NCBI GenBank assembly: GCA_963749905.1
Contig: CAVVOF010000003.1
Coordinates: 642,806-706,805, forward strand
Length of the DNA: 64,000 bases
Origin: an uncultured Actinomycetota bacterium
Lineage (GTDB): Bacteria; Actinomycetota; Actinomycetes; S36-B12
Direction of reading: 5' to 3'
Shown here: in pieces, positions 16,283-42,727 of the stretch
Position numbering within the stretch: the stretch's first letter is position 1
Layout of the letters: each line of letters begins with the position of its first letter
Translations under genes and position numbers: made by a program
The notes under the pieces: model-generated
Seen by the model: the letters and a program-made list of their open reading frames with translations, nothing else
What the model was told of the DNA's origin: nothing
The model's database searches: none

Positions 16283-16308
16283 CCAGCTGCCTGGGCGGGC
16301 GGCTGTCG

Positions 16309-16950: not shown

Positions 16951-17794
<844 letters not shown>

Positions 17795-17795
<1 letters not shown>

Positions 17796-20914: not shown

Positions 20915-20981
20915 GTCCGCAGCCTAGGCGCGCCTGTCCTGCGTCGACGCGCCCATCCACACCCGCGTCGGACTGTCGGGC

Positions 20982-24334: not shown

Positions 24335-24493
24335 CGGTCCACGGTAACGCTCGCGGCGTGCCGCGGCGAGGCGATCGGGCCATTCCTTCGTGCGCCTCGC
24401 GACGGCGCAGGGCGAACACAACGAACGCTCGACAGCGGCACAACACGGCTGAGCCACGGTAGGGGAACCAACCACCAGCTGAGGAGATTCCAC

Positions 24494-25457
24494 ATGCAAG
24501 CCCTCGCCCACGACACCTACGGACCGCCCCAGAGCCTGCTCATGCGGGGCGAGCCCGACCCCTCGGTGGACGCCGACAGCGTCCTCATTCAGGTTCGCGC
24601 AGCAGGTGTGAACCGCGGCGACGCCCTCGCGGCAGAGGGCATCCCCTACGCCACACGGCTGACATCCGGACTCGTCCGACCCAAGAAGACTCGGCTCGGG
24701 GCGGACGTCTCCGGCATCGTCGCGGCCGTCGGGAACGCCGTCACCGATCTCAGGCCCGGCGACCCGGTGCTCGGCTGGGCCGACGGGGCCTTTGCCGAGC
24801 TCGCCGTCGCGCGACCGGAGATGCTGATCCGAAAGCCCGACGCGGTCACCTTCGAGCAGGCCGCGGCGATCCCCACCGCTGCGGTCACCGCCTGGCAAGC
24901 GCTGAAGAAGGCGCGGGACATCGCCGACCAGCGGGTCCTCGTCCTGGGCGCATCCGGCGGGGTCGGCACGTTCACCGTGCAGATCGCCAAGGCGCTCGGT
25001 GCCGACGTCACCGCGGTGGCCAGTTCACGCAACCTCGAGCTCCTTCGCTCCATCGGCGCGGACCACGTGCTCGACTACACCCGAGAGGACGTGACCGGGC
25101 GGGCCGCCGCGTTCGACGTGGTCATCGACCTCGTCGGCCGAGAGCCCCTGATGAGCGCTCGGCGGGCCCTCCGGCCCAAGGGCACCTTCGTGGTCGTGGG
25201 CGGACCGAACCCGCGGTCCCTCACCGGCGCGGGGCGGTTCGCGCGGGCGGCGCTGCTGTCCCCGCTGGTGCCCCAGCGGCTGCACGCCCCTGTTCGCCAC
25301 GCAGGATCGCGCCGCACTCAGGGACGTGATGAACCTCGTTGCTTCCGGGCAGGTCGTCCCCGTCATCGATGCCACGTACGACCTGCGCGACGCACCGGTC
25401 GCCCTGCAGTACGTCTCCGCGGGACATGCCCGTGGCCGCGTCGTCCTCACCGCCTAG
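24494..25457 (+). pseudogene. zinc-type alcohol dehydrogenase / quinone oxidoreductase (MDR family), frameshifted
   Basis: VLVLGASGGVGTFTVQIAKALGADV Rossmann motif. After a C4 run at 25287-25290 the sequence continues in the +1 frame as PLFATQDRAALRDVMNLVASGQVVPVIDATYDLRDAPVALQYVSAGHARGRVVLTA*. Confidence 0.8.
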
Positions 25458-28587: not shown

Positions 28588-28739
28588 GGGCGGCCGCGGT
28601 GGAGTCGCGTCCCGCTAACAGCACATGTCCAGCAGGTTAAATTGAACAATTCTTGACTCGATTGCATCCATGGGCCCCTCTGCCCCGGAAGTGTTGAGTG
28701 AGAGCCCCTCACCACACCACCGACCTATGGAGACCCACG

Positions 28740-29339
28740 ATGAAGAAGATCACGATCGCCGCGGTCGCCGCGGCCGCGGTATTGACCCTCGCCGCCTGCA
28801 GCAGCTCTAGCGACGAGTCCAGCGCGGCAGCCGAGGCCCCCGCCGCGTCGTCCGCCGCCGCCGAGGAGTCGGCGATGGAAGAAGAAGGCGAAATGGCGGA
28901 GGAGCCGGCCGGCGACATCGTCGAGATCGCCAGCGGGACCGACGGGTTCGCCACCCTGACCGCCGCTGTGACGGCAGCCGGACTGGTCGAGACCCTGCAG
29001 GGTGAAGGTCCGTTCACCGTCTTCGCGCCCACGGACGATGCCTTCGCGGCCCTGCCCGCCGGTGTCCTCGACGCGCTCCTGCTGCCCGAGAACAAGGACG
29101 TCCTGACCCAGATCCTCACCTACCACGCGGTGGCCGGCAACGTGATGGCTGCGGACGTGACTGACGGCGACGTGCCGACGGTCGAGGGCCAGACGGTCAC
29201 GCTGTCCACCGCCGACGGGGTCACCGTCAACGGCGCCAACGTGATCCAGGCCGACATCGTCGCCTCGAACGGCGTCATCCACGTCATCGATGCGGTGCTG
29301 CTGCCGCCGGACGTCGACGTCGACGCGCTGCTCGGCTAG
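28740..29339 (+). CDS. fasciclin (FAS1) domain lipoprotein
   Basis: Lipobox [23 protein letters not shown]1 motifs [11 protein letters not shown] and [13 protein letters not shown]. Confidence 0.9.
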
Positions 29340-29349
29340 GACCAACGCG

Positions 29350-29410
29350 CCGAGACCTGCTGGTACCCACACCAACGCACGTGGTTGGGGTAGGTGCCAG
29401 CAGGTCTCGG
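29350..29410 (+). repeat. 61-nt imperfect palindromic repeat, copy 1
   Basis: CCGAGACCTGCTGGTACCCACACCAAC-GCACGT-GGTTGGGGTAGGTGCCAGCAGGTCTCGG. Starts 10 nt after the fasciclin stop and ends 49 nt before the ATG at 29460. Confidence 0.9.
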
Positions 29411-29459
29411 CCGTTTTGGCGTTAACGGGTCCGTAACGGGGGCCGACTAGCGTCGCCGG

Positions 29460-31289
29460 ATGCACCCGGCGGCCCCGAATCCGATCATTCGGCTCCTCGA
29501 CGAGGTGTACGCCGAGGTGCAGGGCCTCGACGGCGGCGAGGTCGCGACGTACATCCCGGAGCTGGCGAAGGCCGACCCGTCCGTCTGCGGGCTCGCCGTC
29601 GCCACGCTCGACGGCCACGTCTACACCGCGGGCGATCTCGTCCCCTTCACCATCCAGTCGGTGTCCAAGCCGTTCGTCTACGCGCTCGCGCTCGCCGACA
29701 GCGGCCCGGAGGCCGTGCTCGCCAAGGTCGGCGCCGAGCCGACCGGCGACCCGTTCAACACCATCAGCCTCGACGACGTCACCATTCGCGCGCACAATCC
29801 GATGGTCAACGCGGGCGCCATCGTCACGACGAGCCTGGTCGCCGGCGCGACGCGCGAGGAGCAGTTCGAGCGGCTGCTGAGCGGGCTGTCCGCCTTCGCG
29901 GGCCGCGCGCTCACCGTCGATGAGAGCGTCTTCCAGTCGGAGAGCTCCACGGGCGACCGCAACCGGGCCATCGCCTACCTCATGCGCTCGGCCGGCCTGC
30001 TGGACGAGGACGTCGAGCAGCAGATCGCCAACTACTTCCGGCAGTGCTCCGTCGTCGTCACCGCCCGGGACCTCGCGGTGATGACGGCGACCCTCGCGAA
30101 CGCCGGCGTCAACCCGCTGACCGGCGTCGAGGTCATCCCTCGCGACGTCGTCGCCTCCGTCCTCACCGTCATGGCGACGTGTGGCATGTACGACTACTCC
30201 GGCGAGTGGCTCTACCGGGTGGGCCTGCCCGCCAAGAGCGGGGTGAGCGGTGCGGTCGGCGCCGTCCTGCCCGGGCAGCTGGGACTCGCGGCCCACAGCC
30301 CGCGACTGGATCCGCAGGGCAACAGCGTGCGCGGCGTCACCGCCTGCGAGCTCATCTCCGAGCGACTCGGGCTGCACCTGCTCCTGCCGGGCGAGCGGGT
30401 CCGCTCGAGCCTGCGACGCACCTACCGCGGCGACACCGTCCGCTCGCGGCGCCTGCGAAACCAGGCCCAGCGCGCGGTCCTCGACACCCACGGAGCCGAG
30501 ATCGTCGCCTACGAGCTCGGCGGCGACGAGGCGTTCGCGGCCGTCGAGCCGCTGGTGCGCGTCGTGCTCGAGGACGACCAGGCTCGCTGGGTGGTGATCG
30601 ACATGCGGCGGGTGACCCGCATCGACCGGGCCGCCCTCGCGCTCATGGACGGGCTCATCGCGCAGCTGGCCAGTGATGGCAGCGTCGTCGCCATCGTCGA
30701 GCCCCGGGCGCAGAGTCCCCGGGTGGCCGTGCGCGACCTCGCTCCGCGATGCCCGCGGTTCTCCGACGCGGACGGCGCCCTCGAGTGGGCCGAGACGCAG
30801 TTGCTGCACGAGCACGGGCTTGACGACGCGCTGCCGGAGGAGCTCGTGCCACTCGCCGAGCAGGATCTCCTGCGGGGACTGCCCCAGGAGATCGTCACCG
30901 CGATCGAGGACCGCGTCATGACCAAGGTCTTCCACGCCGGGACCGTGGTGTTCGAGGAGGGTGACGAGTCCGACGGGCTGTACTTCGTCGGCGCGGGTCA
31001 GGTCGCCGCCGACGTGCGGCTCGCCGGCCGCGGCGGGCGCAGGCGACTGAGCACCATCGCCAGCGGAGCGGTCTTCGGCGAGCTGGCCCTCGTCGACGGT
31101 CGACCGCGGTCGACCCGGATCGTCGCGATCGAGCCCACCATCTGCTTCGTGCTCTCCCCCGAGGCGTTCCGCGAGCTGTGGGACACGGCCCCCGAGGCCT
31201 GCGCCAGCCTGGCGATGGCCATCGCTCGCAGCCTCTCCGAGCGCCTGCGCTACTCCACTGCCGACGTCGCCGCCCTCGAGCAGGTCTGA
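29460..31289 (+). CDS. glsA: glutaminase A fused to STAS and cyclic-nucleotide-binding domains
   Basis: Glutaminase core FTIQSVSKPFVYALAL...NPMVNAGAI...VSGAVGAVLPGQLGLAAHSPRLD. Then a STAS-like segment (RWVVIDMRRVTRIDRAALALM) and a cNMP domain (FGELALVDGRPRSTRIVA). Confidence 0.9.
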   Translation: MHPAAPNPIIRLLDEVYAEVQGLDGGEVATYIPELAKADPSVCGLAVATLDGHVYTAGDLVPFTIQSVSKPFVYALALADSGPEAVLAKVGAEPTGDPFNTISLDDVTIRAHNPMVNAGAIVTTSLVAGATREEQFERLLSGLSAFAGRALTVDESVFQSESSTGDRNRAIAYLMRSAGLLDEDVEQQIANYFRQCSVVVTARDLAVMTATLANAGVNPLTGVEVIPRDVVASVLTVMATCGMYDYSGEWLYRVGLPAKSGVSGAVGAVLPGQLGLAAHSPRLDPQGNSVRGVTACELISERLGLHLLLPGERVRSSLRRTYRGDTVRSRRLRNQAQRAVLDTHGAEIVAYELGGDEAFAAVEPLVRVVLEDDQARWVVIDMRRVTRIDRAALALMDGLIAQLASDGSVVAIVEPRAQSPRVAVRDLAPRCPRFSDADGALEWAETQLLHEHGLDDALPEELVPLAEQDLLRGLPQEIVTAIEDRVMTKVFHAGTVVFEEGDESDGLYFVGAGQVAADVRLAGRGGRRRLSTIASGAVFGELALVDGRPRSTRIVAIEPTICFVLSPEAFRELWDTAPEACASLAMAIARSLSERLRYSTADVAALEQV

Positions 31290-31366
31290 GGGGGTTCGTT
31301 CGGGTAGACCTCGGGACGGCCTCGGCAGAGAATGACCCGACCGAACCGACCGAGAGGAACTGCGCC

Positions 31367-32035
31367 ATGGACAAGGACCTCGTCGACCAGGTGATCGACG
31401 CCGCGCAACGTGTCGTCGCAAGCGGCGCCATCTCGGCGAACGGTCACGGCAACATCAGCATCCGGGTCCCGGGGGCCGAGGAGATGTACTTCACGGCGGC
31501 GCCCTCGTTGCGTGATCATCCCCGGTCCGCCGTCGTCCGAGTCGGCCTCGACGGCACTCTGCTGGAAGGGGACCTGCCACCTATCCAAGGCGCCGTGGTG
31601 GCCATGCACACGGCGATGTACGCCGACAACGCCGAGGTCGGCTGCGTCCTGCATACGCACTCGCCGTATGCCACGGCGTTCGCCGTCGCTCATCGGCCGA
31701 TCGGCTGCTGGAACGAGGCGCTGGCCATGTTCGGGCTTCCCTCCGGGGTGCCGGTCGCGGGCTACGGTCCCCGCGGATCCGACGAGGCGGTCGCGAACAT
31801 CCGCGCCGCGGTCGTGCCCGGAGTGCCGGCGGTCCTGCTCGCTAACCACGGCGTCCTCGTCTTCCACAAGAACCCGGACCTCGCGATCGTCGTCGGCGGC
31901 GTCGTCGAGGAGGCGGCGCAGGCGGGCATCAACGCCGCGGCCATCGGTGGGCCGGTGGACATCCCCGAATCCATGAGGGCCGCGGCACTGCAGCGGGCCA
32001 TGACCTTCGACGCGGCGGGCACGAGGCACGCCTAG
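31367..32035 (+). CDS. class II aldolase/adducin-family protein
   Basis: NGHGNISIRV, CVLHTHSPYATAFA and LLANHGVLVF motifs. RBS GAGAGGA. Confidence 0.85.
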   Translation: MDKDLVDQVIDAAQRVVASGAISANGHGNISIRVPGAEEMYFTAAPSLRDHPRSAVVRVGLDGTLLEGDLPPIQGAVVAMHTAMYADNAEVGCVLHTHSPYATAFAVAHRPIGCWNEALAMFGLPSGVPVAGYGPRGSDEAVANIRAAVVPGVPAVLLANHGVLVFHKNPDLAIVVGGVVEEAAQAGINAAAIGGPVDIPESMRAAALQRAMTFDAAGTRHA

Positions 32036-32142
32036 CTGCTCCGGGGTCCCCGCCGTTCCCTGCACCGATCAATCGGCCGCGACCGGTGTACTCGCTCGCG
32101 GATCGGGTCCATGATGGAGAAGGTCCAACGAGAGGAATGCGC

Positions 32143-32349
32143 ATGAGCGTCTACCGAGTGGTCGATGTCATCGGCACGAGCGAAACATCCTGGGAGGACG
32201 CGGCCGCTGAGGCGATCGCCACCGCGTCAGGGTCCCTGCGGGACATCCGGATCGCGGAGGTCGCCAAGCAGGACGTCGTGATCGCGGACGGCGGGACGCT
32301 GCTCTACCGCACCCGGCTGCAGCTGTCGTTCAAGTACGAGGCCGAGTAG
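32143..32349 (+). CDS. dodecin-family flavin-binding protein
   Basis: 68 aa: MSVYRVVDVIGTSETSWEDAAAEAIATASGSLRDIRIAEV... is the dodecin pattern. Confidence 0.85.
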   Translation: MSVYRVVDVIGTSETSWEDAAAEAIATASGSLRDIRIAEVAKQDVVIADGGTLLYRTRLQLSFKYEAE

Positions 32350-32360
32350 CCCTCCCCGCA

Positions 32361-32421
32361 CCGAGACCTGCTGGCACGGACACCAACCGCGGAACTAGGT
32401 GTCGGTGCGAGCAGGTCTCGG
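32361..32421 (+). repeat. 61-nt imperfect palindromic repeat, copy 2
   Basis: CCGAGACCTGCTGGCACGGACACCAACCGCGGAACTAGGTGTCGGTGCGAGCAGGTCTCGG, flanked by complementary CCCTCCCCGC / GCGGGAGGG. It lies 11 nt after the dodecin stop and 36 nt before the GTG at 32458. Confidence 0.9.
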
Positions 32422-32457
32422 CGGGAGGGTGGGGCGGCGCTGCTGTACCGTCCAGAG

Positions 32458-34131
32458 GTGACTGACCCCGACGCCACCTTCACGTCCCTGGGCCTGCGGC
32501 CCGAATTGTTGAGCACGCTGCAGGCACTGGGCTACGAGGAGCCGACGCCGATCCAGGCCGCCACCATCCCCGTCCTCGTCAGTGGCGCCGACCTGCTCGG
32601 GCAGGCCGCGACGGGCACCGGCAAGACCGCGGCCTTCGCGCTGCCCATCCTCGAGCGGCTCGACCGTGGCGAGCGCGGTCGGGAGCCGTCGGCGCTGGTC
32701 CTGGTCCCGACCCGCGAGCTCGCGCTCCAGGTGTCCCAGGCGTTCCACAGCTACGGGCGTCAGCTCGGCGCTCGGCTCGTGGCCATCTACGGCGGAGCCC
32801 CGGCGCGCCATCAGATCGACGCCCTGCGGCGCGGCGTCGACGTCGTGGTCGCGACTCCGGGGCGGGCGCTGGACCTCATCAACCGCGGTGTGCTCCGCCT
32901 CGACAAGGTGGACACCGTGGTTCTCGACGAGGCCGACGAGATGCTGGAGATGGGCTTCGTCGAGGACATCGAGACGATCCTGGCCCTCACCCCCGACAGC
33001 CGGCAGACAGTCCTGTTCTCGGCGACCATGCCCAAGCGCATCGACAAGCTCGCCAGCCGACACCTGCGCGACCCCGAGCGAGTGTCCATCCGTGCCCGCC
33101 AGACCGCCGAGGGCGAGGTGCCGCTCGTGCGGCAGGCCGCCTACATCGTGCCCCGGCGCAACAAGGCATCCGCGCTCGGTCGCATCCTCGACGCCGAGGA
33201 CCCGGTGGCCGCCATCGTGTTCTGCCGCACCCGGGGGGCCGTCGACGAGCTCACCGACCTGCTCGTCGCGAGCGGGTACCAGGCCGAGGCCCTGCACGGC
33301 GGCCTCACCCAGGACCAGCGCGATCGCGTCATGGGTCGGCTGCGATCGGCGACCACCGAGCTCCTCGTCGCCACCGACGTCGCCGCCCGCGGGCTCGACA
33401 TCGACCAGCTGACGCACATCGTCAACTACGACCTGCCGATGAGCCCGGAGGCCTACGTCCATCGCATCGGGCGGGTGGGGCGTGCGGGTCGCGAGGGGGT
33501 GGCGCTGAGCCTGGTCGATCCGCGTGAGCGGCGCATGCTCTCGTCGATCGAGAAGTTGATCGGGAAGACGATCCCCGTCGAGCGGGTGCCGACGGCCGCC
33601 ACGGTTCGCGGCATGCGGCTCCAACGCAGCGTCAAGGCCCTCGAGGACGTGCTCGACGGCGAGCCCGACCACCTCGACCGCTACCGCGAGGTCGTCGAGG
33701 GCATGTTCGACGTGCGCGATCCCCGCGACGTCGCGCTCGCCGCGTTCGCCTTGCTGCACGAGGCGACGCAGGGGACCGCCCGCGACGACGATGACCGGGA
33801 TCTCTCCGCACCCGACGAGGGCCACGGCCGGGCCACCGGCAGGCACGAGGAGAGGCCGGCCGGATCCCCGCGCAAGGCCAGGAAGCTGAGCGGCCCGGCC
33901 AGCCGACTGTTCGTCTCGGTAGGACGCAAGGCCGGAGTGACGCCCGGGGACATCGTCGGCGCGATCACCGGCGAGGCGGGCGTCAAGGGCAAGGACATCG
34001 GCGCGATCACCGTGCACGAGATGTACTCGCTGGTCGAGGTGCCGGAGGACAAGGCCCGCAAGATCGCCAAGGCGATGAACCACTGCACCATCCGCGGGCG
34101 CAAGGTGTCCGTCCGCCTCGACCGCGGCTGA
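32458..34131 (+). CDS. DEAD-box ATP-dependent RNA helicase with DbpA-type C-terminal RNA-binding domain
   Basis: Q-motif FTSLGL...PTPIQ, Walker A AATGTGKT, plus DEAD (VLDEADEM), SAT and HRIGRVGRAG. Confidence 0.9.
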   Translation: MTDPDATFTSLGLRPELLSTLQALGYEEPTPIQAATIPVLVSGADLLGQAATGTGKTAAFALPILERLDRGERGREPSALVLVPTRELALQVSQAFHSYGRQLGARLVAIYGGAPARHQIDALRRGVDVVVATPGRALDLINRGVLRLDKVDTVVLDEADEMLEMGFVEDIETILALTPDSRQTVLFSATMPKRIDKLASRHLRDPERVSIRARQTAEGEVPLVRQAAYIVPRRNKASALGRILDAEDPVAAIVFCRTRGAVDELTDLLVASGYQAEALHGGLTQDQRDRVMGRLRSATTELLVATDVAARGLDIDQLTHIVNYDLPMSPEAYVHRIGRVGRAGREGVALSLVDPRERRMLSSIEKLIGKTIPVERVPTAATVRGMRLQRSVKALEDVLDGEPDHLDRYREVVEGMFDVRDPRDVALAAFALLHEATQGTARDDDDRDLSAPDEGHGRATGRHEERPAGSPRKARKLSGPASRLFVSVGRKAGVTPGDIVGAITGEAGVKGKDIGAITVHEMYSLVEVPEDKARKIAKAMNHCTIRGRKVSVRLDRG

Positions 34132-34143
34132 CCCCCCTTTCCG

Positions 34144-34204
34144 CCGAGACCTGCTGGTACCGACACCAACCAGCGCGGTTGGTGTAGGTACCACTAGGTC
34201 TCGG
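34144..34204 (+). repeat. 61-nt imperfect palindromic repeat, copy 3
   Basis: CCGAGACCTGCTGGTACCGACACCAACCAGCGCGGTTGGTGTAGGTACCACTAGGTCTCGG. It lies 12 nt after the helicase stop and 14 nt before the stop of the convergent gene at 34219. Confidence 0.9.
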
Positions 34205-34218
34205 CGGAAGTGGGTCCG

Positions 34219-37030
34219 CTAGGCGGGCTCGACGCACGCTTGGTACGTCGGATCCCACCAGGAGCCGGGCGGACAGGTGGGCACCACGGGTGTCGGCGTC
34301 GATGTCGGGTCGGCGCCGACGGCGAGGTTGACCCGCGCGAGCGCTGACGTGGTGCCGTCGGATCCGGTGATCGTGAAGGCGGTCTGGCTGAGCGTGGCGA
34401 CGGGGGTGCCGCTGATCACGCCCGTCTCGGTGTCGAGGGACAGTCCGCTGGGCAGGACGGGGCTGATCGAGTAGGTCACCGGACCGGTGAACCCGAACTC
34501 AGCGAGCACGGCCGTGGTGATGGGCGTCCCGACATCGACCTTCACGGTCTGCGGCGTCGGGGCGAGCCTCGCCTGCACTGCGGTCGGCCCATGGCAGGTC
34601 GCGGGGTCACCAAGCGTGAGGTCCCAGTAGTAGGCGAAGGCCTGCTGCTGGTTCGGGGACAGGTCCGACGGCACGAACGTGTCGGAGTACGGCATCGCGT
34701 ACACGCCGGACGGCTTCGGCGCTCCCGGTGCGGGAAGGCTGTAGTCGCTGTTGGACGCGGCGCGGATCACGTCGTCGTACACGTTCCACGCGTACTGCCC
34801 GGTCTTCGTCGGGTACGTCGGCTGCGCGGCCGCGTACGCGTCCGTGAGCGGGTTGCGAGTGAAGTTGACGCCCGACGCCCCGGTGTCGTTGCCGTAGGCG
34901 GAGCCCCAGTAGCCGTAGGAGAACGCCGCGATGAAGTCGCGGTAGATCGTCTTGGTCACCGTGGTCCAGCCGGTGCCGGTGAGCGCAGATCCGTTGGACC
35001 ACCCGAGCCACGCCTTGCCGGGAAGCTGCACATTGAACGGACCGTCCTGCCCGTACAGGCCGTACCCAGTGCCGCCGCGCGTGCCGGGACCATAGAGACC
35101 GGCTTGCTCAACTCGCAGGGTCGGTCCGGGCTGACCGCCGCTGACGGTGCCCGCCAGCGTCCACACTCCGCCGCTGAGGGTCGCGGTGTAGTCGAAGGCC
35201 CCGTTGCCGTACTGGGGATCCTTCTTCGTCGAGGTGACGCCGACGCTGTCCTGGACGGTCAGCGGGCCGGTAACGCTGGTCGCGTACGTCTCGACGCTCG
35301 GGTACGGCGTGGGGTACTTGGACGCACCGACGAGCCCGATCCACGTGCTGCCCCCGTCGCTCACGTCATTCAGGTCGTCGAGGGTCCATGTGCCCGGCGC
35401 CGGGGTGCTCGTCGGCAGCGTGCCGGTGTACTTCATGACCCCGCCCGTGTTCGTGCCCGTCGCCTGGTCGAACACGTACGGCGACATGTCCACTCCGGTC
35501 AGCGACAAGCCGTTGACGATGTCGACGAGGCAGCCGGTGTCGCGGTAGGAGCCGGGGATGGCGCTCTGGGACTGGTCCTTGAGGACCTGCGACATGGTGA
35601 CACCGACCTGGTCGATCATCGTGAAGTCCACGTCAAGACCGGACGCGTCGTAGGTGAACTCCGCGAACCCGTAGCGGATCGTCGACGTGGCCGGGTCCGG
35701 CGGGGCGCCGGTGAGGCTCGCATTCGAGAAGTACAGGTTCCCGGACTCGACCGGCGGGGTCAGGGTGAGCGTGGCGGAGTGGGTAGCTGCGTCGTAGCCC
35801 GGCAGTGACGTGAAGGCGGCACTGGTCAAGGTGGATCCGTTCACGCCGGTGATCCCGCCGACCGCTCCCCCACCCGAGACGTCCGCCATCACCGACAGGT
35901 ACAGGTCCCCGTCTGCGATGCCGGACGTGGCGGAGTTCGTGACCGTGACGGGAATCGCTCCCTGATACGGGGGCAGGAATGTGAAGCCCCCGGACGGGGG
36001 AACGGATGCGACCGTGTAGCCCGCAGGTCGGGAGCCCTTCTTCGGCAACGTGATGACCACGGCGCACGACGATGCGGGCACGTTCGGGACCTGGAACGAG
36101 ATGCTGGACCCGTTCGCTGCCGGCTTCAGGTTCAAGGCCGGGTACGTGGCGGTCGGATTGTCGGCCGGGCAGTAGGCGAACGTGACTGCGGTCGCCGTGT
36201 TGAGCCCACTCCCGGTAGCCGTCACCCACTGCGGATCCGTCACCTGCGTCTGTGCCCCCTCTGCTGGGGACAATGCGATGGCCGGCACCCTCGCCGCGGT
36301 ATCCACCCACACCCCGCTCGGGGTCAACGCCGTCGTATCGACGGTGTTCCCGGATGGCAGCGTGAAGGTGACGATGCACGAGGTTCCCGCCGGGACGGTG
36401 GCGAGCGTGGCGGCATCGGGGGTGACAGTCGCGCGGCTCGCAGGACTCGAGCCGATCGCGGCCACCGTCGCGGGCACCGTTACCGCACCGCAGGACAAGG
36501 ACGCGGCCGTGACGCCCGAGAACCCGGCGACATCACCCGGGCTCCGTCGGATTCGCGGTCGAGCCGATCACCATGAATGAGGCATCCCCACCCGAGACCG
36601 GCAGGATCGACGGCGCTGCACCAATGGGGGTCAGGTACGCCACGTCGGTCGCGCTGTAGGTGATCTGGCCGACGAGCAGACCCGGGGTGGTCGGCTTGGT
36701 GCGCGTGGTCACGTACAGGTCACACGTCGACGGCTCGAACGGTCCGAGCTCCGCCGTCAGTGTTCCCGCCGCCGCGTCCACCGTGACGCCGGTGACGGAC
36801 CCGGATCCGGCCACGGGCGTCCCCGAGCTCTCGCAGCCCTGAATCGTCACCGCGCTCCTGGCGACCAGTCCCGCAGCGGTGACGGTGACCTGCGTCGTGT
36901 ATCCACCCACCGCGACGATGGTGGTCGGCGAGACACTCGGCGACGGTGCCGCATGCACTGCCTGCGGCAGCGCTACCCCTCCGGCGATGAGGGCCACCGT
37001 GGCGGCGATGGCGGCAAGCACGCGGGTCAC
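34219..37030 (-). pseudogene. secreted multidomain surface protein (signal peptide, Ig-like repeats, GH64 beta-1,3-glucanase-like core, He_PIG-type Ig domain), single frameshift at 36533-36541
   Basis: The upstream ORF (signal VTRVLAAIAATVALIAGGVALPQAVHA|AP) ends ...TANPTEPG* at CCCGGGTGA. The next frame is open from there (PGDVAGFSGVTAASLSCGAVTV...) for 759 aa. 2812 nt is 3n+1. The GH64-like call rests on the LYFSN...FAEFTY...DVDFTMIDQVG and YAMPYSDTF patterns and comes from memory of the family. Confidence 0.6.
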
Positions 37031-37122
37031 GGGCACTCCTCGGACGGCATCGGACGGTAGCTGGCCCTGCAGGTCAGGTATCGGATGGCGTCGAAGCATC
37101 TCACCCGCGTGCCCCATTTCCG

Positions 37123-37183
37123 CCGAGACCTGCTGCTACCGACACCAACCAGCGCGGTTGGTGTAGGTACCACTAGGTCTCGG
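37123..37183 (+). repeat. 61-nt imperfect palindromic repeat, copy 4
   Basis: Differs from copy 3 at one base (CTGCTGCTACC versus CTGCTGGTACC). With flanks, 70/71 nt are identical. It ends 22 nt before the GTG at 37206. Confidence 0.9.
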
Positions 37184-37205
37184 CGGACGGGGCACCTACG
37201 ATCAC

Positions 37206-38282
37206 GTGATGACGTACATTGCCGCTGCGCACGGCGTGGTCGGCCCCTTCGGGTACCCGCAGGACGTCATCACCGAGGCTTTCGCCACCGTCGTCGCCCC
37301 CGACGGCGAGCAGAGACCGCTCATCGAGCGCATCCACAAGGCCACCGGGGTGCAGCACCGCAACCTGGCCATCCCACTGGAGGCCTACGCGCACCTCGCC
37401 GACTTCGGGGCGGCCAACGACGAGTTCATCCGGGTGGGCGTCGACCTCGGCGCTGAGGCGATCGAGGGGGCACTGGCCGCCGCGCACCTCGATGCCACCG
37501 ACGTCGACATGATCCTGTCCACGTCCGTCACCGGCATCGCCGCACCCTCCCTCGAGGCCATGCTCGTGCCGCGGATCGGCCTGCGGGCGGACGTCAAGCG
37601 AGTGCCGGTCTTCGGTCTCGGCTGCGTGGCCGGTGCCGCCGGGATCGCGCGACTGCACGACTACCTCGTCGGGCACCCCGACGACGTGGCCGTGCTCCTG
37701 TCCGTCGAGCTGTGCTCCCTGACCGTCCAGCGCGACGACGTGTCCATGCCCAACATCGTGGCCAGCGGCCTGTTCGGCGACGGCGCCGCCGCGGTAGTCA
37801 TGGTGGGCGACAACCGCGCCGCCCGCATGGGCCTGACCGGCCCGCGCGTGGTGGCCTCCCGCAGCCGGCTCTACCCGGACACCGAGAAGACGATGGGCTG
37901 GGACATCGGCGGCAGCGGATTCCGCATCGTGCTGTCCGCTGGCGTCGCGGATGTCATCAACCAGTACCTCGGCGACGACGTGGGCGATTTCCTGGCCGAC
38001 CACGACCTCACGACCACCGACGTGTCGCGCTGGGTGTGCCATCCGGGCGGACCACGGGTGCTGGAGGCTATGGAGTCCGCGCTGGACCTCCATGACGGTC
38101 AGCTCGACGTCACCTGGCGATCACTCGCGGCCATCGGCAATCTGTCGTCGGCCTCGGTCCTGCATGTGCTGTGCGACACCCTCGACGGGTCAGTGGACGG
38201 TGCGCCGGAGCCAGGGACCGCCGGCCTGCTGATGGCGATGGGCCCGGGCTTCTGCGCCGAGCTCGTGCTGCTGGAATGGTGA
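37206..38282 (+). CDS. type III polyketide synthase (chalcone synthase superfamily)
   Basis: The catalytic triad contexts are all present: FGLGCVAGAAG (Cys), VCHPGGPRVL (His) and IGNLSSASVL (Asn). Confidence 0.9.
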   Translation: MMTYIAAAHGVVGPFGYPQDVITEAFATVVAPDGEQRPLIERIHKATGVQHRNLAIPLEAYAHLADFGAANDEFIRVGVDLGAEAIEGALAAAHLDATDVDMILSTSVTGIAAPSLEAMLVPRIGLRADVKRVPVFGLGCVAGAAGIARLHDYLVGHPDDVAVLLSVELCSLTVQRDDVSMPNIVASGLFGDGAAAVVMVGDNRAARMGLTGPRVVASRSRLYPDTEKTMGWDIGGSGFRIVLSAGVADVINQYLGDDVGDFLADHDLTTTDVSRWVCHPGGPRVLEAMESALDLHDGQLDVTWRSLAAIGNLSSASVLHVLCDTLDGSVDGAPEPGTAGLLMAMGPGFCAELVLLEW

Positions 38283-38286
38283 GCCG

Positions 38287-38808
38287 ATGACCGGCTTCGT
38301 CCTGTTCACGATCCTGATCGCCCTCGTCGCGGTCGAGCGCGTGGTGGAGCTCGTCGTGTCGAAGCGCAACCTGCGCTGGAGCGCGGAGCACGGCGGCGTC
38401 GAGTACGGCCGGTCCCACTACCCGTACATGGTGGCGCTGCACGTGTTCCTGCTCGTCGGGGCGCTCGTCGAGGTATGGGTGTGGCAGAAGCCGCTCATCC
38501 CCGCACTGTCCTGGACGATGTTCGTGCTCGTCCTCGCGTCGCAGGCTCTGCGGTGGTGGTGCATCACCACTCTGGGCAAGCGCTGGAACACCCTCGTGGT
38601 GATCGTCCCCGGCATGCCTCGCGTCACCGGCGGCCCATACCGCTGGCTGAGCCATCCGAACTACGTGGCCGTCGTCATCGAGGGCATCGCGCTGCCGATG
38701 GTCGGGTTCGCCTGGGTCACCGCCCTGGTGTTCACCGTCCTGAACATCCCGCTGCTCGCCGTCCGCCTGCGCACGGAGAACGCCGCGCTCGCCACCCTCC
38801 CGCGATGA
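38287..38808 (+). CDS. isoprenylcysteine carboxyl methyltransferase (ICMT)-family membrane methyltransferase
   Basis: 173 aa with 4-5 TM segments and the GPYRWLSHPNYVAVVIEGIALP motif. Starts 4 nt after the PKS stop. Confidence 0.8.
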   Translation: MTGFVLFTILIALVAVERVVELVVSKRNLRWSAEHGGVEYGRSHYPYMVALHVFLLVGALVEVWVWQKPLIPALSWTMFVLVLASQALRWWCITTLGKRWNTLVVIVPGMPRVTGGPYRWLSHPNYVAVVIEGIALPMVGFAWVTALVFTVLNIPLLAVRLRTENAALATLPR

Positions 38809-39824
38809 TCGACCTGATCGTCGCGGGCGGCGGGCCCATCGGCCTGATGACCGCCATCCGTGCGCGCCTGGGCGGCCTGGACGTCACCATCGTCGAGCCG
38901 CGCACTGGACCGATCGACAAGGCCTGCGGCGAGGGCCTGATGCCCGACGCACTCGCGCGGCTGAACGCCGTCGGCGTGGATCCCGCAGGCCGTGACTTCC
39001 ACGGCATCCGCTACGTGGCACCGGGCGCGGTCGCCGAGGCGCGGTTCCGATCCGGGACCGGTCGGGGGGTCCGGCGGCTCGAGCTGCAGTCGGCCTTGCA
39101 GCGACGGGCCGAGGAGCTCGGCGTGGGCTTCGTCAGCGGCCGCGTTGATTCGATCTCGCAGGGCGACGGATGGATCGAGGCCGGGGGCCTTCGCGCGCGA
39201 TACCTCGTGGGGGCTGACGGCCTGCACTCCGCGGTGCGCCGCGCGCTCGGACTCGGCTTGCAGTCGTCCGGCGAGCAACGGTTCGGCATCCGCCAGCACT
39301 TCGCGGTGCGGCCGTGGACGGACCTCGTCGAGGTCTACTGGCTCGACGACGCTGAGCTCTACGTGACGCCGGTGAGCGACTCGACGGTGGGCGTGGCCGT
39401 GCTTGGCCGTGCACCCTTGGACCTCGACCGCGCGATCGTTCGCGTCCCGTCCCTCGCGTCCCGCCTCGAGTCGGCGCCTCGGGCGAGCGAGTCCCGCGGC
39501 GCCGGTCCACTCCGGCAGAACGTGGCGGCACGATCCGTTGGGCGGGCGCTGCTCGTCGGCGACGCGGCCGGCTACGTGGACGCGCTCACCGGCGAGGGGC
39601 TGCGCGTCGGCTTCGTCGAGGCCGAGGCAGTCGTGCGGGCGGTGCTCGCGGACGATCCCGACCGCTACGAGGCGGACTGGCGGCGCATCACCCGCTCGTA
39701 CCGCTGGCTGACCGGGGGGCTGCTGTGGGCGGCATCCCGTCGTCGGGTGCGGCCGATGATCGTGCCCGCCGCACGGGCGCTCCCACCGGTGTTCGGCCGG
39801 ATCGTGGACTCGCTGGCCGCGTAG
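38805..39824 (+). CDS. FAD-dependent oxidoreductase (geranylgeranyl reductase/aromatic hydroxylase-like)
   Basis: MIDLIVAGGGPIGLMTAI dinucleotide fold, plus KACGEGL and LVGDAAGYVDALTGEGL. ATGA overlap with the methyltransferase gene. Confidence 0.85.
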   Translation: MIDLIVAGGGPIGLMTAIRARLGGLDVTIVEPRTGPIDKACGEGLMPDALARLNAVGVDPAGRDFHGIRYVAPGAVAEARFRSGTGRGVRRLELQSALQRRAEELGVGFVSGRVDSISQGDGWIEAGGLRARYLVGADGLHSAVRRALGLGLQSSGEQRFGIRQHFAVRPWTDLVEVYWLDDAELYVTPVSDSTVGVAVLGRAPLDLDRAIVRVPSLASRLESAPRASESRGAGPLRQNVAARSVGRALLVGDAAGYVDALTGEGLRVGFVEAEAVVRAVLADDPDRYEADWRRITRSYRWLTGGLLWAASRRRVRPMIVPAARALPPVFGRIVDSLAA

Positions 39825-39830
39825 GCGGCG

Positions 39831-40658
39831 TCAGCCCACCCGATCGCCGAGAACCGCGGTGACGATCACGAGCACCGCGACGTCGACCGCGACCATCGCC
39901 ACGATCGCCTGGAACATCGCGGCCCGACGCTGCGATCGGGAGCCGAGGACGAGCGCAGCAAGGAAGACCACGATGACGAGCAGGGCCAGCCACCGGCTGA
40001 CCTCGGCCGTGACCACGGCCAGGATCCCACTCCCAACGGCCAGCAGCACCCAGCACAGGACGATGGACCGGCGGGCGCCGAGGCGGACGACCAGTCCGCC
40101 GACTCCCGCGGCCCGGTCCGACTCGACGTCAGGCAGGGCGTTGGCCAGGTGCGCGCTCACGCCGACGATGGCGAACACGGCGACGGACCACGGTGTCGGC
40201 GGCTCCCCGTCCAGGCCGAGGGACAGGAAGGCCGGCATCGCCCCGAAGGCCAGGGCGTACGGGAGCCAGGACCACGCCGTGCGCGAGAGCCGCACGTTGT
40301 AGAGCCAGGCCATCAGGATGGCGAAGACGTGGAACGAGCCGCCCAGCCAGCCGGCCACCGCCCAGCTGAGCACGCAGGCCGCGGCGAGCGCCGTCGTGGC
40401 CGAGATCCACAGCGCCCGCGGCGACACGGCCTGAGCGACCGTCGGCTTGCTCGCCCGGCCGACGCGCGCGTCCAGGGCGGCGTCGAACGCGTCGTTGCTC
40501 CACCCCACCGACAGCTGGCCGAGGAAGATCGCGGCGAACACCGTCGCGAGTGGCCACCCCGACCAGCCCAGGCTCCACGCGAAGGCGGTGATGACCAGCG
40601 AGACGGCCAGCGTCGGCAGCGCGTGGGCAGCCGTGACGAAACCGCGGAGCCGACGCAT
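39831..40658 (-). CDS. UbiA-family aromatic prenyltransferase
   Basis: Polytopic membrane protein with the Asp-rich motif GWSNDAFDAALD. I chose the ATG at 40658 because the longer TTG start at 40706 lies inside repeat copy 5. Confidence 0.8.
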   Translation of the reverse strand: MRRLRGFVTAAHALPTLAVSLVITAFAWSLGWSGWPLATVFAAIFLGQLSVGWSNDAFDAALDARVGRASKPTVAQAVSPRALWISATTALAAACVLSWAVAGWLGGSFHVFAILMAWLYNVRLSRTAWSWLPYALAFGAMPAFLSLGLDGEPPTPWSVAVFAIVGVSAHLANALPDVESDRAAGVGGLVVRLGARRSIVLCWVLLAVGSGILAVVTAEVSRWLALLVIVVFLAALVLGSRSQRRAAMFQAIVAMVAVDVAVLVIVTAVLGDRVG

Positions 40659-40680
40659 GCCGTGAGCCTCCCACTCCGCG

Positions 40681-40741
40681 TCGAGACCTGCTGGCAACCA
40701 CACCAACCGGCGAACTAGTTGTCGGTTTCAGCAGGTCTCGG
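40681..40741 (+). repeat. 61-nt imperfect palindromic repeat, copy 5
   Basis: TCGAGACCTGCTGGCAACCACACCAACCGGCGAACTAGTTGTCGGTTTCAGCAGGTCTCGG, flanked by complementary CCCACTCCGCG / CGGGAGTGGG. It sits in the divergent region between the starts at 40658 (-) and 40766 (+). Confidence 0.9.
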
Positions 40742-40765
40742 CGGGAGTGGGTGGGAGGGTGAGGC

Positions 40766-41653
40766 ATGACCGTGGACGTGGGTGTCGTCATCCGACCGCA
40801 GGTACCGCCGGAGATCATGCGGGGCCTGTTTCAGCACGCGGAGTCCGTCGGGCTCGAGCAGGTGTGGCTGTGGGAGGACTGCTTCCTCGAGGGCGGCGTG
40901 TCGTCCGCGGCCACCGCGCTGGCCGACACCGAGCGGCTCGCCGTCGGGATCGGGCTGCTGCCGGTCCCCCTGCGCAACGTCGCCGCGACCGCCATGGAGA
41001 TCGCGACCCTGGACCGCCTGCACGGTCAACGGCTGCGGGTTGCGGTCGGGCACGGCGTGCAGGAGTGGATGGGCCAGGTCGGCGCCCGCGCCGAATCGCC
41101 CCTGACGCTCATGCGCGAGTACCTCAGCGCCCTGCGCCGCCTGCTCGCGGGCGAAACCGTCAGCACCGACGGGACGTACGTCCGGCTCGACCACGTGGCG
41201 CTCGACTGGCCGCCATCCGAGCCGACGCGGATCCTGATGGGCGCGGCCGGCCCGAAGTCCCTGAGCCTGGCTGGCGAGCTCGCCGACGGCGTCGTCCTGA
41301 TGGAGGACACCTCGCCGGACGCGCTCGCGTCCGCGCTCGCGGCCATTCAGGAGGGTCGCGAGAAGGGGCATCGACGGGACGCCTTCGACGTCGTCGTGTA
41401 CCTGCGTGCCTACCGGGGTCCCGATGCCCAGGAGAAGCTGCGCCGCGACGCCAAGTACCCGACCGGCAACTTCGGCATCGAGCTCACCGCATCCGCGGTC
41501 GGGCAGGCCGTGGCCGACCTGGCCGGCGCGGGTGCGACGACAGTGGTCCTCGTGCCCGCCGGCGACGAGGACTCCGTGCCGGCCTACCTCGACCAGGCCG
41601 CGGGCATCATCGGCGAGATCCAGCCGACGACGCCCACGGCCCCGCAGGGGTAG
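40766..41653 (+). CDS. LLM-class (luciferase-like) F420-dependent oxidoreductase
   Basis: 295 aa with VWLWEDCF, VGIGLLPVPLRNV and ILMGAAGPKSLSLAGELADGVVL patterns. Confidence 0.85.
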   Translation: MTVDVGVVIRPQVPPEIMRGLFQHAESVGLEQVWLWEDCFLEGGVSSAATALADTERLAVGIGLLPVPLRNVAATAMEIATLDRLHGQRLRVAVGHGVQEWMGQVGARAESPLTLMREYLSALRRLLAGETVSTDGTYVRLDHVALDWPPSEPTRILMGAAGPKSLSLAGELADGVVLMEDTSPDALASALAAIQEGREKGHRRDAFDVVVYLRAYRGPDAQEKLRRDAKYPTGNFGIELTASAVGQAVADLAGAGATTVVLVPAGDEDSVPAYLDQAAGIIGEIQPTTPTAPQG

Positions 41654-42295: not shown

Positions 42296-42727
42296 GTGAC
42301 GGTGAACGATCCCCAATCGGCTGGCCCCGCAGACCCGGGACCGTTCTTCCACGGCACCAAGGCCGCACTGCAGATCGGGGATCGGCTGGTGGCCGGCAAC
42401 GACTCCAACTTCGGCGCCGGCGCGACGGCGAACTTCGTCTACCTCACCGCCACGCTCGACGCGGCGGTCTGGGGAGCGGAGCTGGCGCTGGGTGACGAGC
42501 CGGGCCGCATCTACGTGGTCGAGCCCACCGGTCCGTTCGAGGACGATCCGAACCTGACCGACAAGAAGTTCCCGGGCAACCCCACGCGGTCGTACCGGAC
42601 CAGAGCCCCTCTGGTGGTGGTCGGCGAGGTCGAGGAGTGGGAGGGCCACCCCGCGGAGGTGCTCACCGCGATGCTCGACCATCTCGCGGAGCTCAAGCGC
42701 CAAGGCATCGAAGCCATCAACGACTAG
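42296..42727 (+). CDS. arr: NAD(+)-rifampin ADP-ribosyltransferase
   Basis: GPFFHGTKAALQIGD, AVWGAELA, IYVVEPTGPFEDDPNLTDKKFPGNPTRSYRT and VEEWEGHP align closely with my memory of Arr-ms. Confidence 0.9.
   Translation: MTVNDPQSAGPADPGPFFHGTKAALQIGDRLVAGNDSNFGAGATANFVYLTATLDAAVWGAELALGDEPGRIYVVEPTGPFEDDPNLTDKKFPGNPTRSYRTRAPLVVVGEVEEWEGHPAEVLTAMLDHLAELKRQGIEAIND

What the first reader, a model, noticed from the sequence alone, without database searches (positions are those of the whole stretch)
29350..40741. Five copies of an exactly 61-nt imperfect palindrome in intergenic spacers
The cores lie at 29350-29410, 32361-32421, 34144-34204, 37123-37183 and 40681-40741. They share the termini (C/T)CGAGACCTGCTG ... 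AGGTCTCGG. They also share an inner box ACACCAACC, which is paired with GGTTGGTGT or GGTTGGGGT in three copies. Each copy can therefore fold into a stem of about 24-28 bp.

Outside the core every copy carries its own, different, complementary extension. Examples are CCCTCCCCGC/GCGGGAGGG at copy 2, CCCACTCCGCG/CGGGAGTGGG at copy 5 and CTTTCCG/CGGAAG at copy 3. Pairing is kept while the sequence changes.

Three copies start 10-12 nt after a plus-strand stop codon (29339, 32349, 34131). Four end 22-49 nt before a plus-strand start codon (29460, 32458, 37206, 40766). Two lie in divergent promoter regions, so a plain terminator role does not explain the family.

All copies have the same orientation. 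Two subtypes are visible: copies 2 and 5 share a GAACTAG centre, and copies 3 and 4 share a CAGCGCGG centre. No transposase or RAYT-like gene is in the window, and I do not recognise the sequence as a named repeat family.

It could be a REP/MITE-like element, a structured 5'UTR or terminator RNA module, or a protein-binding cruciform site.
Basis: partly seen in the sequence, partly recalled or inferred. Interest (0 to 1): 0.7.

Follow-up and report, generated by a model that had tools for sequence, protein, structure and literature searches.

The report
Clustered palindromic intergenic repeat family
Five copies of an ~85-base hairpin-forming repeat fill five consecutive gene spacers in an uncultured actinobacterium; it behaves like a small, locally spreading REP/MITE-type selfish element from an uncatalogued family, not like a dedicated regulatory RNA.

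Summary
Five same-orientation copies of a 61-nt imperfect palindrome lie at the stated coordinates (0 expected by chance).

It is an ~85-nt hairpin: the 61-nt core plus ~11-nt outer arms. The outer arms are homologous between copies, not unique flanks.

The copies fill every spacer over 60 nt between 29.3 and 40.8 kb. None lies in the other 52 kb of the window.

A related metagenomic genome (locus L126) has four more copies in the same neighbourhood:
- Two are orthologous to c1 and c5. One of these still folds although its terminal motif has mutated; the other has lost the hairpin.
- The core is exactly 61 nt in 8 of 10 copies.
- Base pairing is kept through changes on both arms (13 pairs).

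Within-genome copies are more alike than orthologues, and c3 and c4 differ by 1 nt. This points to recent local copying.

I found no target-site duplications, no transposase, RAYT or integrase in the window, no Rfam, literature, phage or plasmid match, and no U-tract except at c1.

Best reading: a new family of REP/MITE-like palindromic elements, with incidental RNA-hairpin or ribosome-binding-site effects. A cassette-boundary or recombination-site role is unlikely but not excluded.

Interest is moderate.

The parts
29340..29420 (+). Copy c1. The 61-nt core is 29350-29410. It lies between fasciclin-domain gene (28698-29339, +) and glutaminase/cNMP-binding gene (29460-31289, +). It is the only copy followed by a T run (CCGTTTTGG).
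   Evidence: Its orthologue in L126 has homologous flanks on both sides.
32349..32435 (+). Copy c2. The core is 32361-32421. It lies between the dodecin gene (32086-32349, +) and the DEAD/DbpA RNA helicase gene (32458-34131, +). The outer arms are CCCTCCCC and GGGAGGG, and it belongs to the GAACTAG-centre subtype.
34130..34216 (+). Copy c3. The core is 34144-34204. It fills the whole 87-nt spacer between two convergent stop codons: the helicase gene (+) and a secreted glucanase-like gene (34219-36498, -).
37109..37195 (+). Copy c4. The core is 37123-37183 and differs from c3 by 1 nt. It lies between a secreted 194-aa ORF (-) and the type III PKS gene (+, ATG at 37209). Homology of the PKS upstream region to L126 begins right after its right outer arm, at ACCTACGATC.
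40667..40754 (+). Copy c5. The core is 40681-40741. It lies between the UbiA prenyltransferase gene (39831-40658, -) and a luciferase-like monooxygenase gene (40766-41653, +). Its orthologue in L126 lies upstream of the same luciferase-like gene.

Best explanation
The five copies belong to a lineage-restricted family of small, non-autonomous palindromic repeats of the REP/MITE kind. Each element is about 85 nt: an exactly 61-nt core with conserved termini (C/T)CGAGACCTGC...GCAGGTCTCGG, a variable centre, and ~11-nt C/T-rich left and G/A-rich right outer arms.

Shown: the family predates the split between the window genome and the L126 genome, because two sites are orthologous. Shown: within each lineage, copies near the two old copies are more similar to them than the orthologues are.

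Inferred: new copies were therefore made locally after the split (c1-like to c3 to c4; c5-like to c2).

Inferred: the DNA is copied as a single-strand hairpin by a trans-acting enzyme, or by a replication or repair template switch. It lands only in intergenic spacers, or survives only there. Arm symmetry is kept by selection for the hairpin during copying, by intramolecular template switching between arms, or by both.

Inferred: when transcribed, the hairpin has secondary effects. It can act as a stable 3'-end structure after stop codons. The purine-rich right arm can supply a Shine-Dalgarno sequence, as at the luciferase-like gene in L126. These effects are by-products, not the reason the family exists.
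For: Copy number and structure:
- Five copies against 0 expected.
- Every copy is a long hairpin, z -7 to -10.6 as RNA and on both strands as DNA.

Distribution:
- A covariance-model search of the whole window with filters off finds only these five.
- All five lie in consecutive spacers of 87-120 nt that they nearly fill. My crude gene calls leave 23 further gaps of 60 nt or more with none, though some of those hold uncalled genes.
- All ten copies are intergenic.

Related genomes:
- L126 has four further copies in 9.2 kb and none in the next 12 kb.
- L097 has one copy sharing 16+15 nt of the termini.
- Five other loci centred on orthologues of the PKS or glutaminase gene have none; L129 shares L126's gene order.

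Age and copying:
- c1 and L126_a are orthologous, with homologous flanks on both sides.
- c5 and L126_b share the luciferase side.
- Core differences are 1-16 within the window, 15-19 within L126 and 15-27 between genomes. c3-c4 differ by 1, c1-c3 by 9, c2-c5 by 10.

No site-level constraint on sequence:
- L126_b has lost its hairpin (z 0.21).
- L126_a has mutated the otherwise invariant terminal motif.

Pairing:
- 77.6% of cells are paired, against 35-47% in slid registers.
- 13 pairs changed on both sides.
- The covariation score is 0.231 against 0.144 in shuffles (0 of 500 reach it).
- Template switching can create and maintain such symmetry (PMC8794818, PMC8604942).

No catalogued match: Rfam, literature, plasmids and phages.
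Against: - No mobilising enzyme was identified. There is no Y1 transposase (RAYT), DDE transposase or integrase domain in about 75 window ORFs. The rest of the genome could not be reached.
- There are no target-site duplications and no common flanking tetranucleotide.
- Genome-wide copy number is unknown. In the 64-kb window the family is confined to 11.4 kb, unlike classical REPs that are scattered in hundreds of copies.
- The orthologous pair c1/L126_a keeps a -60 kcal/mol hairpin through changes on both arms. This could instead reflect selection for the structure at that site.
- G.U pairs on the + strand outnumber A.C pairs 19 to 8, and the + strand folds better in 9 of 10 copies. This hints that one strand matters, possibly as RNA.
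Confidence: 0.55

Rival explanations
1. The element is a host-selected RNA hairpin module. Transcribed in the + orientation, it defines or protects mRNA 3' ends after stop codons and insulates neighbouring transcription units. This would be analogous to the TRIT hairpins of Mycobacterium, or to REP hairpins that stabilise upstream mRNA. On this reading the dispersal is secondary.
For: - The hairpin starts 0-12 nt after stop codons in c1, c2, c3 and L126_a. It fits exactly between convergent stops in c3 and L126_d.
- In all three tandem contexts it has the same orientation as the genes.
- G.U outnumbers A.C pairs 19 to 8 on the + strand, and the + strand folds better in 9 of 10 copies.
- The orthologous pair c1/L126_a keeps its pairing although both arms changed.
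- c1 is followed by TTTT.
- TRIT is a precedent for a sequence-conserved hairpin at gene ends in actinobacteria (PMC3152330).
Against: - Three of ten copies (c4, c5, L126_b) lie between divergent genes, where no 3' end is expected.
- No U-tract follows any copy except c1, and the terminator scan found none at the copies.
- The orthologue L126_b has lost the hairpin without losing its place.
- The family is absent from about 23 other gaps of 60 nt or more in the window (some hold uncalled genes). It is also absent from a locus with L126's gene order in a related genome (L129).
- Compensatory change is also produced by template switching, without selection (PMC8794818).
Confidence: 0.2
2. The element is a hairpin recombination site that delimits mobile gene blocks. 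On this reading the region is an array of cassettes captured next to a resident copy by an unidentified hairpin-specific recombinase, in the manner of integron attC sites.
For: - Five same-orientation copies delimit four segments in an array.
- The four-gene block from PKS to UbiA lies between DUF2277 and the SNase-PPK2 genes in L126 and L129; L128 shows the same left side. In the window it lies between c4 and c5.
- Homology to L126 stops at the outer arms on both sides of that block.
- Between the glutaminase and luciferase-like genes, L126 has one gene and the window has four element-bounded segments.
- The termini are conserved while the centre varies.
Against: - No recombinase was found in the window or in L126.
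- The segments hold one to four genes, on both strands.
- There are no attC R boxes (RYYYAAC/GTTRRRY) at the ends.
- The copy-specific outer arms of c3 and c4 pair within each copy, not across copies (GTGCCCC with GGGGCAC in c4). Junctions made by reciprocal recombination between two copies would pair across copies.
- The vacated PKS site holds a different hairpin, not a family copy.
- Other synteny breakpoints in the same region carry no copy.
- c1 and c5 stayed in place across the split.
Confidence: 0.07
3. The element is a cruciform or double-strand binding site for a nucleoid-associated protein or regulator that coordinates the neighbouring genes.
For: - The termini are invariant in nine of ten copies.
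- The core length is fixed at 61 nt.
- Both DNA strands can fold, so a cruciform is possible.
- Copies lie close to four start codons.
Against: - The flanking genes are functionally unrelated: glutaminase, RNA helicase, secreted glucanase-like protein, PKS operon and luciferase-like oxidoreductase.
- A 61-85-nt palindrome is far longer than known operators.
- Orthologous copies lose the terminal motif or the hairpin.
- No candidate regulator gene lies next to the cluster.
Confidence: 0.05

Closest known systems
REP / REPIN elements (repetitive extragenic palindromes mobilised by RAYT Y1 transposases; mainly Proteobacteria)
   Same: - Strictly intergenic, imperfect palindromes that form hairpins.
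- The termini are conserved more than the centre.
- Subfamilies exist within one genome.
- Pairing is kept by compensatory change.
- Copies lie just after stop codons and between convergent genes.
- No target-site duplication.
   Different: - The hairpin is 61-85 nt, against 20-40 nt per REP.
- There is no conserved GTAG-type flanking tetranucleotide.
- No RAYT gene was seen.
- Copies are confined to an 11-kb cluster in 64 kb, not scattered at high density.
- The host is an uncultured actinobacterium. I found no paper linking RAYT or REPIN with actinobacteria.
TRIT (Tuberculosis Rho-independent terminator motif) of Mycobacterium (Gardner et al. 2011, PMC3152330)
   Same: - An actinobacterial, sequence-conserved and structure-conserved palindromic hairpin at gene ends.
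- No canonical U-tract.
- Mostly bidirectional because it is palindromic.
- Restricted to one lineage.
   Different: - TRIT is reported only in Mycobacterium, with 147 copies spread over the genome and positioned around -8 relative to stop codons.
- This family begins 0-12 nt after stops and also occupies divergent spacers.
- It is locally clustered.
- It has no match in Rfam.
- No TRIT model was available, so sequence membership could not be tested directly.
MITEs (miniature inverted-repeat transposable elements, e.g. Correia, RUP, Nezha)
   Same: - Small, non-coding and dispersed.
- Inverted termini.
- Presence or absence differs between related genomes.
- Can supply ribosome-binding or other expression signals to neighbouring genes.
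   Different: - No target-site duplications.
- No parent IS with matching ends was found.
- The whole element is one continuous hairpin, not two short terminal inverted repeats around an unrelated core.
- It is at the lower end of the MITE size range.
Integron attC sites
   Same: - Imperfect palindromes of 57-141 nt with conserved ends and variable centres.
- One orientation.
- One site per gene segment in an array.
   Different: - No R''/R' boxes.
- No intI gene.
- Multi-gene segments on both strands.
- The outer arms pair within each copy.
- By my recollection, integrons are not known in Actinomycetota; I did not check this here.

Membership tests
REP/REPIN (RAYT-associated) | Short imperfect palindrome, strictly extragenic, in many copies | tested here: inconclusive
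   All ten copies are extragenic and palindromic. The unit is 61-85 nt. Only five copies occur in 64 kb, all within 11.4 kb. Genome-wide copy number could not be obtained.
REP/REPIN (RAYT-associated) | A RAYT (Y1 transposase, IS200-like) gene in the genome, typically flanked by REPs | not testable with these tools
   None was found among about 75 window ORFs.
REP/REPIN (RAYT-associated) | Conserved flanking tetranucleotide (GTAG-type) at the cleavage site | tested here: not met
   The flanks of the eight gapless copies share no common tetranucleotide outside the outer arms.
MITE | Terminal inverted repeats | tested here: met
   The termini CCGAGACCTGC and GCAGGTCTCGG are inverted and conserved.
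MITE | Target-site duplications flanking the element | tested here: not met
   No direct repeats of 3-6 nt were found consistently at any boundary offset from 0 to 18 nt.
MITE | Parent IS or transposase with matching ends | not testable with these tools
   None lies in the window or in L126. L127 carries rve and TnpB genes but no family copy.
TRIT (Mycobacterium) | Match to the TRIT sequence and structure consensus, in the genus Mycobacterium | not tested
   No TRIT model was available. Rfam gave no hit at gathering threshold and only chance hairpin hits at E<5. The paper reports TRIT only in Mycobacterium. The best named protein relatives here are Nanopelagicales- or Frankiales-type MAGs.
Canonical intrinsic terminator | GC-rich hairpin followed directly by a U-tract | tested here: not met
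   The consensus scan found no terminator at any copy. Only c1 has four T's after the stem.
Integron attC | R''/R' boxes (RYYYAAC ... GTTRRRY) at the ends, and a nearby intI gene | tested here: not met
   The ends are CCGAGACC and GGTCTCGG. No integrase domain was found in the window or in L126.
Known Rfam RNA family | Score at or above a family's gathering threshold | tested here: not met
   There were 0 matches at gathering threshold over 64 kb. Sub-threshold hits are generic long hairpins such as miRNA precursors and mraW at 22 bits against a threshold of 50.

The most novel reading that the evidence does not exclude
The hairpins are recognition sites of an undescribed hairpin-specific recombination or transposition system in uncultured Actinomycetota. 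This system would move whole gene blocks into an array next to resident copies. The PKS-to-UbiA block, now sitting exactly between c4 and c5, would be one example. It would be an integron-like cassette system in a phylum where, to my knowledge, none is known. A milder version: the conserved 11-nt terminal stem and the fixed 61-nt length are read by a dedicated hairpin-binding protein.
Probability: 0.08. Interest if true: 0.8.

Novelty: new member of a known kind. Interest (0 to 1): 0.4.

Why it matters
If the main reading is right, this adds an uncatalogued palindromic repeat family to a poorly sampled actinobacterial lineage.

It also provides a compact natural case for studying such elements. 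Two genomes share orthologous old copies next to young local copies. The data therefore separate three things: what is conserved by copying (the termini and the 61-nt length), what is conserved by palindrome symmetry (the pairing), and what decays at a given site.

The family marks a plasticity zone downstream of the glutaminase gene, where gene order differs in every related genome examined.

For annotation, these hairpins should not be read as riboswitches, sRNAs or terminators without transcript data.

If the minority reading is right, and the elements are recombination sites that move gene blocks, this would be a new gene-capture mechanism in Actinomycetota.

Tried and rejected
Searches that led nowhere:
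- My first scan of the genome collection (GAGACCTGCTG-N28-50-AGGTCTC) was too loose. Only L097 is a convincing relative.
- A stricter pattern found no family member in JGI metagenomes. The five hits are unrelated or coding sequences, and L121/L122 are at best doubtful. It found nothing in viral contigs.
- BLAST against plasmids and phages found nothing.
- Rfam found nothing real.
- A literature search for the terminal motif returned only mammalian KiSS-1 primers. There were no papers on RAYT or REPIN in actinobacteria.
- Exact look-ups of window proteins failed, so the rest of the source contig could not be read.
- Helicase relatives at 84-89% identity do not share gene order with the window and carry no copies.

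Ideas rejected:
- An integron attC site: no R boxes and no intI.
- A canonical terminator: no U-tracts.
- A promoter inside the element: no sigma-70-like site and, by eye, no TANNNT hexamer.
- c3 and c4 as the two junctions of a reciprocal recombination: their copy-specific outer arms pair within each copy.
- Unique complementary flanks created by insertion into pre-existing hairpins: the outer arms are homologous among copies. Only the outermost 2-3 bp are copy-specific, and that could be chance.
- L071 as a family member: its terminal match is within chance expectation for a hairpin of that kind.

Full report
**1. The observation**

The pattern CGAGACCTGCTG-N30-45-AGGTCTCG matches these five places and nowhere else, against 0.00 expected in 100 shuffles. 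Every core is exactly 61 nt.

The window has about 70% G+C. The five copies are its longest inverted repeats. As RNA they fold at -58 to -69 kcal/mol, with z-scores of -7 to -10.6. As DNA, both strands fold.

A covariance model built from the five copies and run over the whole window with filters off finds only these five. Each scores 24-43 bits higher on the + strand, so all share one orientation. A second model gave the same result.

**2. The unit is longer than 61 nt**

When the copies are aligned with their flanks, similarity continues for about 11 nt on each side. The consensus is CCCnCTnCGCG-core-CGGnAGTGGG. They are C/T-rich on the left and G/A-rich on the right. Only the outermost 2-3 bp are truly copy-specific (GA...TC in c3, GTG...CAC in c4), and that little could be chance.

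**3. Genomic setting**

Pfam scans give this map:

| Position | Feature |
|---|---|
| 28698-29339 + | fasciclin-domain gene |
| | **c1** |
| 29460-31289 + | glutaminase with cNMP-binding domain |
| 31178-32035 + | class II aldolase |
| 32086-32349 + | dodecin |
| | **c2** |
| 32458-34131 + | DEAD/DbpA RNA helicase |
| | **c3** |
| 34219-36498 - | secreted glucanase-like protein |
| 36533-37117 - | secreted 194-aa ORF |
| | **c4** |
| 37209-38282 + | type III PKS |
| 38287-38808 + | ICMT methyltransferase |
| 38475-39824 + | FAD monooxygenase |
| 39831-40658 - | UbiA prenyltransferase |
| | **c5** |
| 40766-41653 + | luciferase-like oxidoreductase |

So two copies lie between tandem genes, one between convergent genes and two between divergent genes. 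Each spacer is 87-120 nt and is almost filled by the element.

Every spacer over 60 nt between 29.3 and 40.8 kb holds a copy. My crude gene calls leave 23 further gaps of 60 nt or more elsewhere in the window, some of which hold uncalled genes, and none holds a copy. For five random points on 64 kb, the probability that all fall within 11.4 kb is about 0.004 (my calculation).

About 75 window ORFs show no transposase, RAYT or integrase domain. There are no tRNA genes.

**4. Relatives**

The source genome is an uncultured actinobacterium. The window's own proteins are on record from a 1,047,739-bp contig. The best named relatives are MAGs labelled Actinomycetes, Nanopelagicales or Frankiales, at 66-71% identity. 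I could not fetch the rest of the source contig.

My first pattern scan of the genome collection was too loose and was wasted. It did reveal one convincing relative, L097 (MAG UBA10649). That copy is a 62-nt core between convergent genes. It shares CGCCGAGACCTGCTGG and CAGCAGGTCTCGGCG with the window copies.

A stricter pattern found no members in JGI metagenomes or viral contigs. Plasmid and phage BLAST, Rfam and the literature gave nothing.

The useful relatives came from gene neighbours. L126 is a 522-kb contig whose PKS is 85% and whose glutaminase is 94% identical to the window's. It carries four copies in its first 9.2 kb and none in the next 12 kb:

| L126 copy | Position | Relation to window |
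|---|---|---|
| a | between the fasciclin and glutaminase genes | orthologue of c1 |
| b | upstream of the luciferase-like gene | orthologue of c5 |
| c | between convergent genes | no counterpart |
| d | between convergent genes, opposite orientation | no counterpart |

Five other loci have no copies. They are centred on orthologues of the PKS gene (L127, L128, L129, and L130-132, which are one place in three assemblies) or of the glutaminase gene (L133, L134). L129 shares L126's gene order. The core is exactly 61 nt in 8 of the 10 copies.

**5. Evolution of the copies**

c1 and L126_a are orthologous beyond doubt. Both flanks align, through the stop codon on the left and through GCGTTAAC...CCGTAACGGGGG to the glutaminase start on the right.

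In L126_a the terminal motif, invariant elsewhere, has changed on both arms: GAGACCTGC became GACACGAGC, and GCAGGTCTC became GCGTTGTGC. A hairpin of -60 kcal/mol remains.

c5 and L126_b share the right flank and the luciferase-like gene. L126_b no longer folds better than shuffled sequence (z 0.21). Its right outer arm, GAGTGGGAGG, lies 8-10 nt before the start codon and serves as the Shine-Dalgarno sequence.

Core differences:

| Comparison | Differences in the 61-nt core |
|---|---|
| within the window | 1-16 |
| within L126 | 15-19 |
| between the two genomes | 15-27 |
| c3 vs c4 | 1 |
| c1 vs c3 | 9 |
| c2 vs c5 | 10 |
| c5 vs its orthologue L126_b | 15 |

The simplest history has two old copies, at sites 1 and 5, that predate the split. 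Later local copying in each lineage followed, with c3 and c4 the youngest copies.

**6. Pairing**

I tested the simple palindromic register on the gapless 8 x 89 alignment:
- 77.6% of cells pair, against 35-47% for slid registers.
- 13 of 38 pairs show changes on both sides (12 of 500 shuffles reach this).
- The covariation score is 0.231 against 0.144 in shuffles (0 of 500 reach this).

A 10-bp segment is almost completely different between c2 (CTGGCACGGA / TCGGTGCGAG) and L126_d (CACCAATCGG / CCGGTTGGTG), yet it pairs in both.

G.U cells on the + strand outnumber A.C cells 19 to 8. The + strand folds better in 9 of 10 copies.

This shows that symmetry is maintained, but it does not show why. 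Template switching between the arms of an inverted repeat copies a change from one arm to the other. It can also extend the arms without any selection (PMC8794818, PMC8604942, PMC13100816).

**7. Rearrangements**

In L126 and L129 the order is DUF1232(-), DUF2277, PKS, ICMT, FAD, UbiA(-), a ~140-aa gene(-), SNase(-), PPK2. L128 shows the same left side, DUF1232(-), DUF2277, PKS, ICMT, before its contig ends.

The window differs in three ways:
- DUF1232, the ~140-aa homologue, SNase and PPK2 lie at 59.5-62.4 kb without the PKS block.
- DUF2277 lies at 47252-47455.
- The PKS-to-UbiA block lies between c4 and c5. Homology to L126 stops at the outer arms: ACCTACGATC to the right of c4 and GACGCATGCC to the left of c5.

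The vacated site holds a different, single-copy 111-nt perfect hairpin at 59990-60100 (-88 kcal/mol).

Downstream of the glutaminase gene, every related genome has different genes. This looks like a plasticity zone and invites a cassette model, but four results argue against that model:
- No recombinase was found.
- Other breakpoints in the region carry no copy.
- The segments hold several genes on both strands.
- The copy-specific outer arms of c3 and c4 pair within each copy, not across copies. Junctions made by reciprocal recombination would pair across copies.

**8. Other tests**

- No target-site duplications and no common flanking tetranucleotide.
- No sigma-70-like promoter and no hairpin-plus-U-tract terminator at any copy. 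Only c1 has TTTT after the stem.
- The weak model hits in L071 and L121/L122 are probably chance or coding sequence.

**9. Conclusion**

The best-supported reading (about 0.55) is a new family of REP/MITE-like, non-autonomous palindromic elements. It is restricted to a lineage of uncultured Actinomycetota, is old enough to have orthologous copies in two genomes, and has been copied locally since.

Its hairpin is kept by constraints of the copying process, by template switching, or by both. Its effects on transcripts are by-products: a stable hairpin directly after stop codons and a purine-rich arm that can serve as a ribosome-binding site.

The main rival (about 0.2) is a host-selected RNA hairpin comparable to TRIT of Mycobacterium (PMC3152330). 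A role as a recombination site or cassette boundary (about 0.07) is the most novel reading left open. A protein-binding cruciform site is rated at about 0.05.

The mobilising mechanism and the genome-wide copy number remain unknown. Both need the complete genomes.

Noticed in passing
window 59990-60100: An unrelated, single-copy, nearly perfect 111-nt hairpin (GACAACTGCGCGATCCGCCCCC ... GGGGGGCGGATCGCGTGGTTGTC; -88 kcal/mol, z -9.5). It lies exactly where the PKS-to-UbiA block is found in related genomes but is missing here. No other copy exists in the window or in any fetched locus.
   Followed up: partly
window 37209-40658, compared with L126 10001-13465 and L129 10001-13440: The four-gene block of type III PKS, ICMT methyltransferase, FAD monooxygenase and UbiA prenyltransferase has moved about 20 kb from its conserved position between DUF2277 and the SNase-PPK2 genes. 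By my recollection this gene set resembles the mycobacterial polyketide-quinone and alkylresorcinol clusters. DUF2277 itself now lies at 47252-47455.
   Followed up: partly
window 31290-40765, compared with L126 2437-3247, L133 4488 onward and L134 11840 onward: The region downstream of the glutaminase gene holds different genes in each of the four related genomes. This suggests a local hotspot of gene-order change.
   Followed up: partly
L126 3228-3247 and window 40742-40765: The purine-rich right outer arm of the element (GAGTGGGAGG) supplies the Shine-Dalgarno sequence of the luciferase-like gene in L126. In the window this stretch is partly duplicated (GTGGGTGGGAGGG). The left outer arms (CCCTCCC, CTCCCTCCCTTTCG) resemble the anti-Shine-Dalgarno end of 16S rRNA; that resemblance is from memory and was not tested.
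   Followed up: no
window 42296-42727: A rifampin ADP-ribosyltransferase gene (Arr-ms, Pfam E 2e-48) lies next to a DUF4287/DUF1801 gene. The order of the two genes is swapped relative to L126.
   Followed up: no
window 14699-16260: A possible nucleotidyltransferase (DUF6036) and HepT-like RNase pair, which looks like a toxin-antitoxin module.
   Followed up: no
window 20911-24898 (- strand): Several overlapping ORFs with BTAD, guanylate cyclase, AAA/NB-ARC and MalT-like TPR domains. This may be one large regulator gene, as in L134 at 14620-18384, that is split here by frameshifts or assembly errors.
   Followed up: no
L127 13524-14051 and 15552-16772: In the relative at 87% PKS identity, an rve-domain integrase fragment and a TnpB (OrfB_IS605) gene flank the UbiA gene. 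This is a different kind of mobile DNA at the same boundary of the PKS block. That locus holds no copy of the palindromic family.
   Followed up: no
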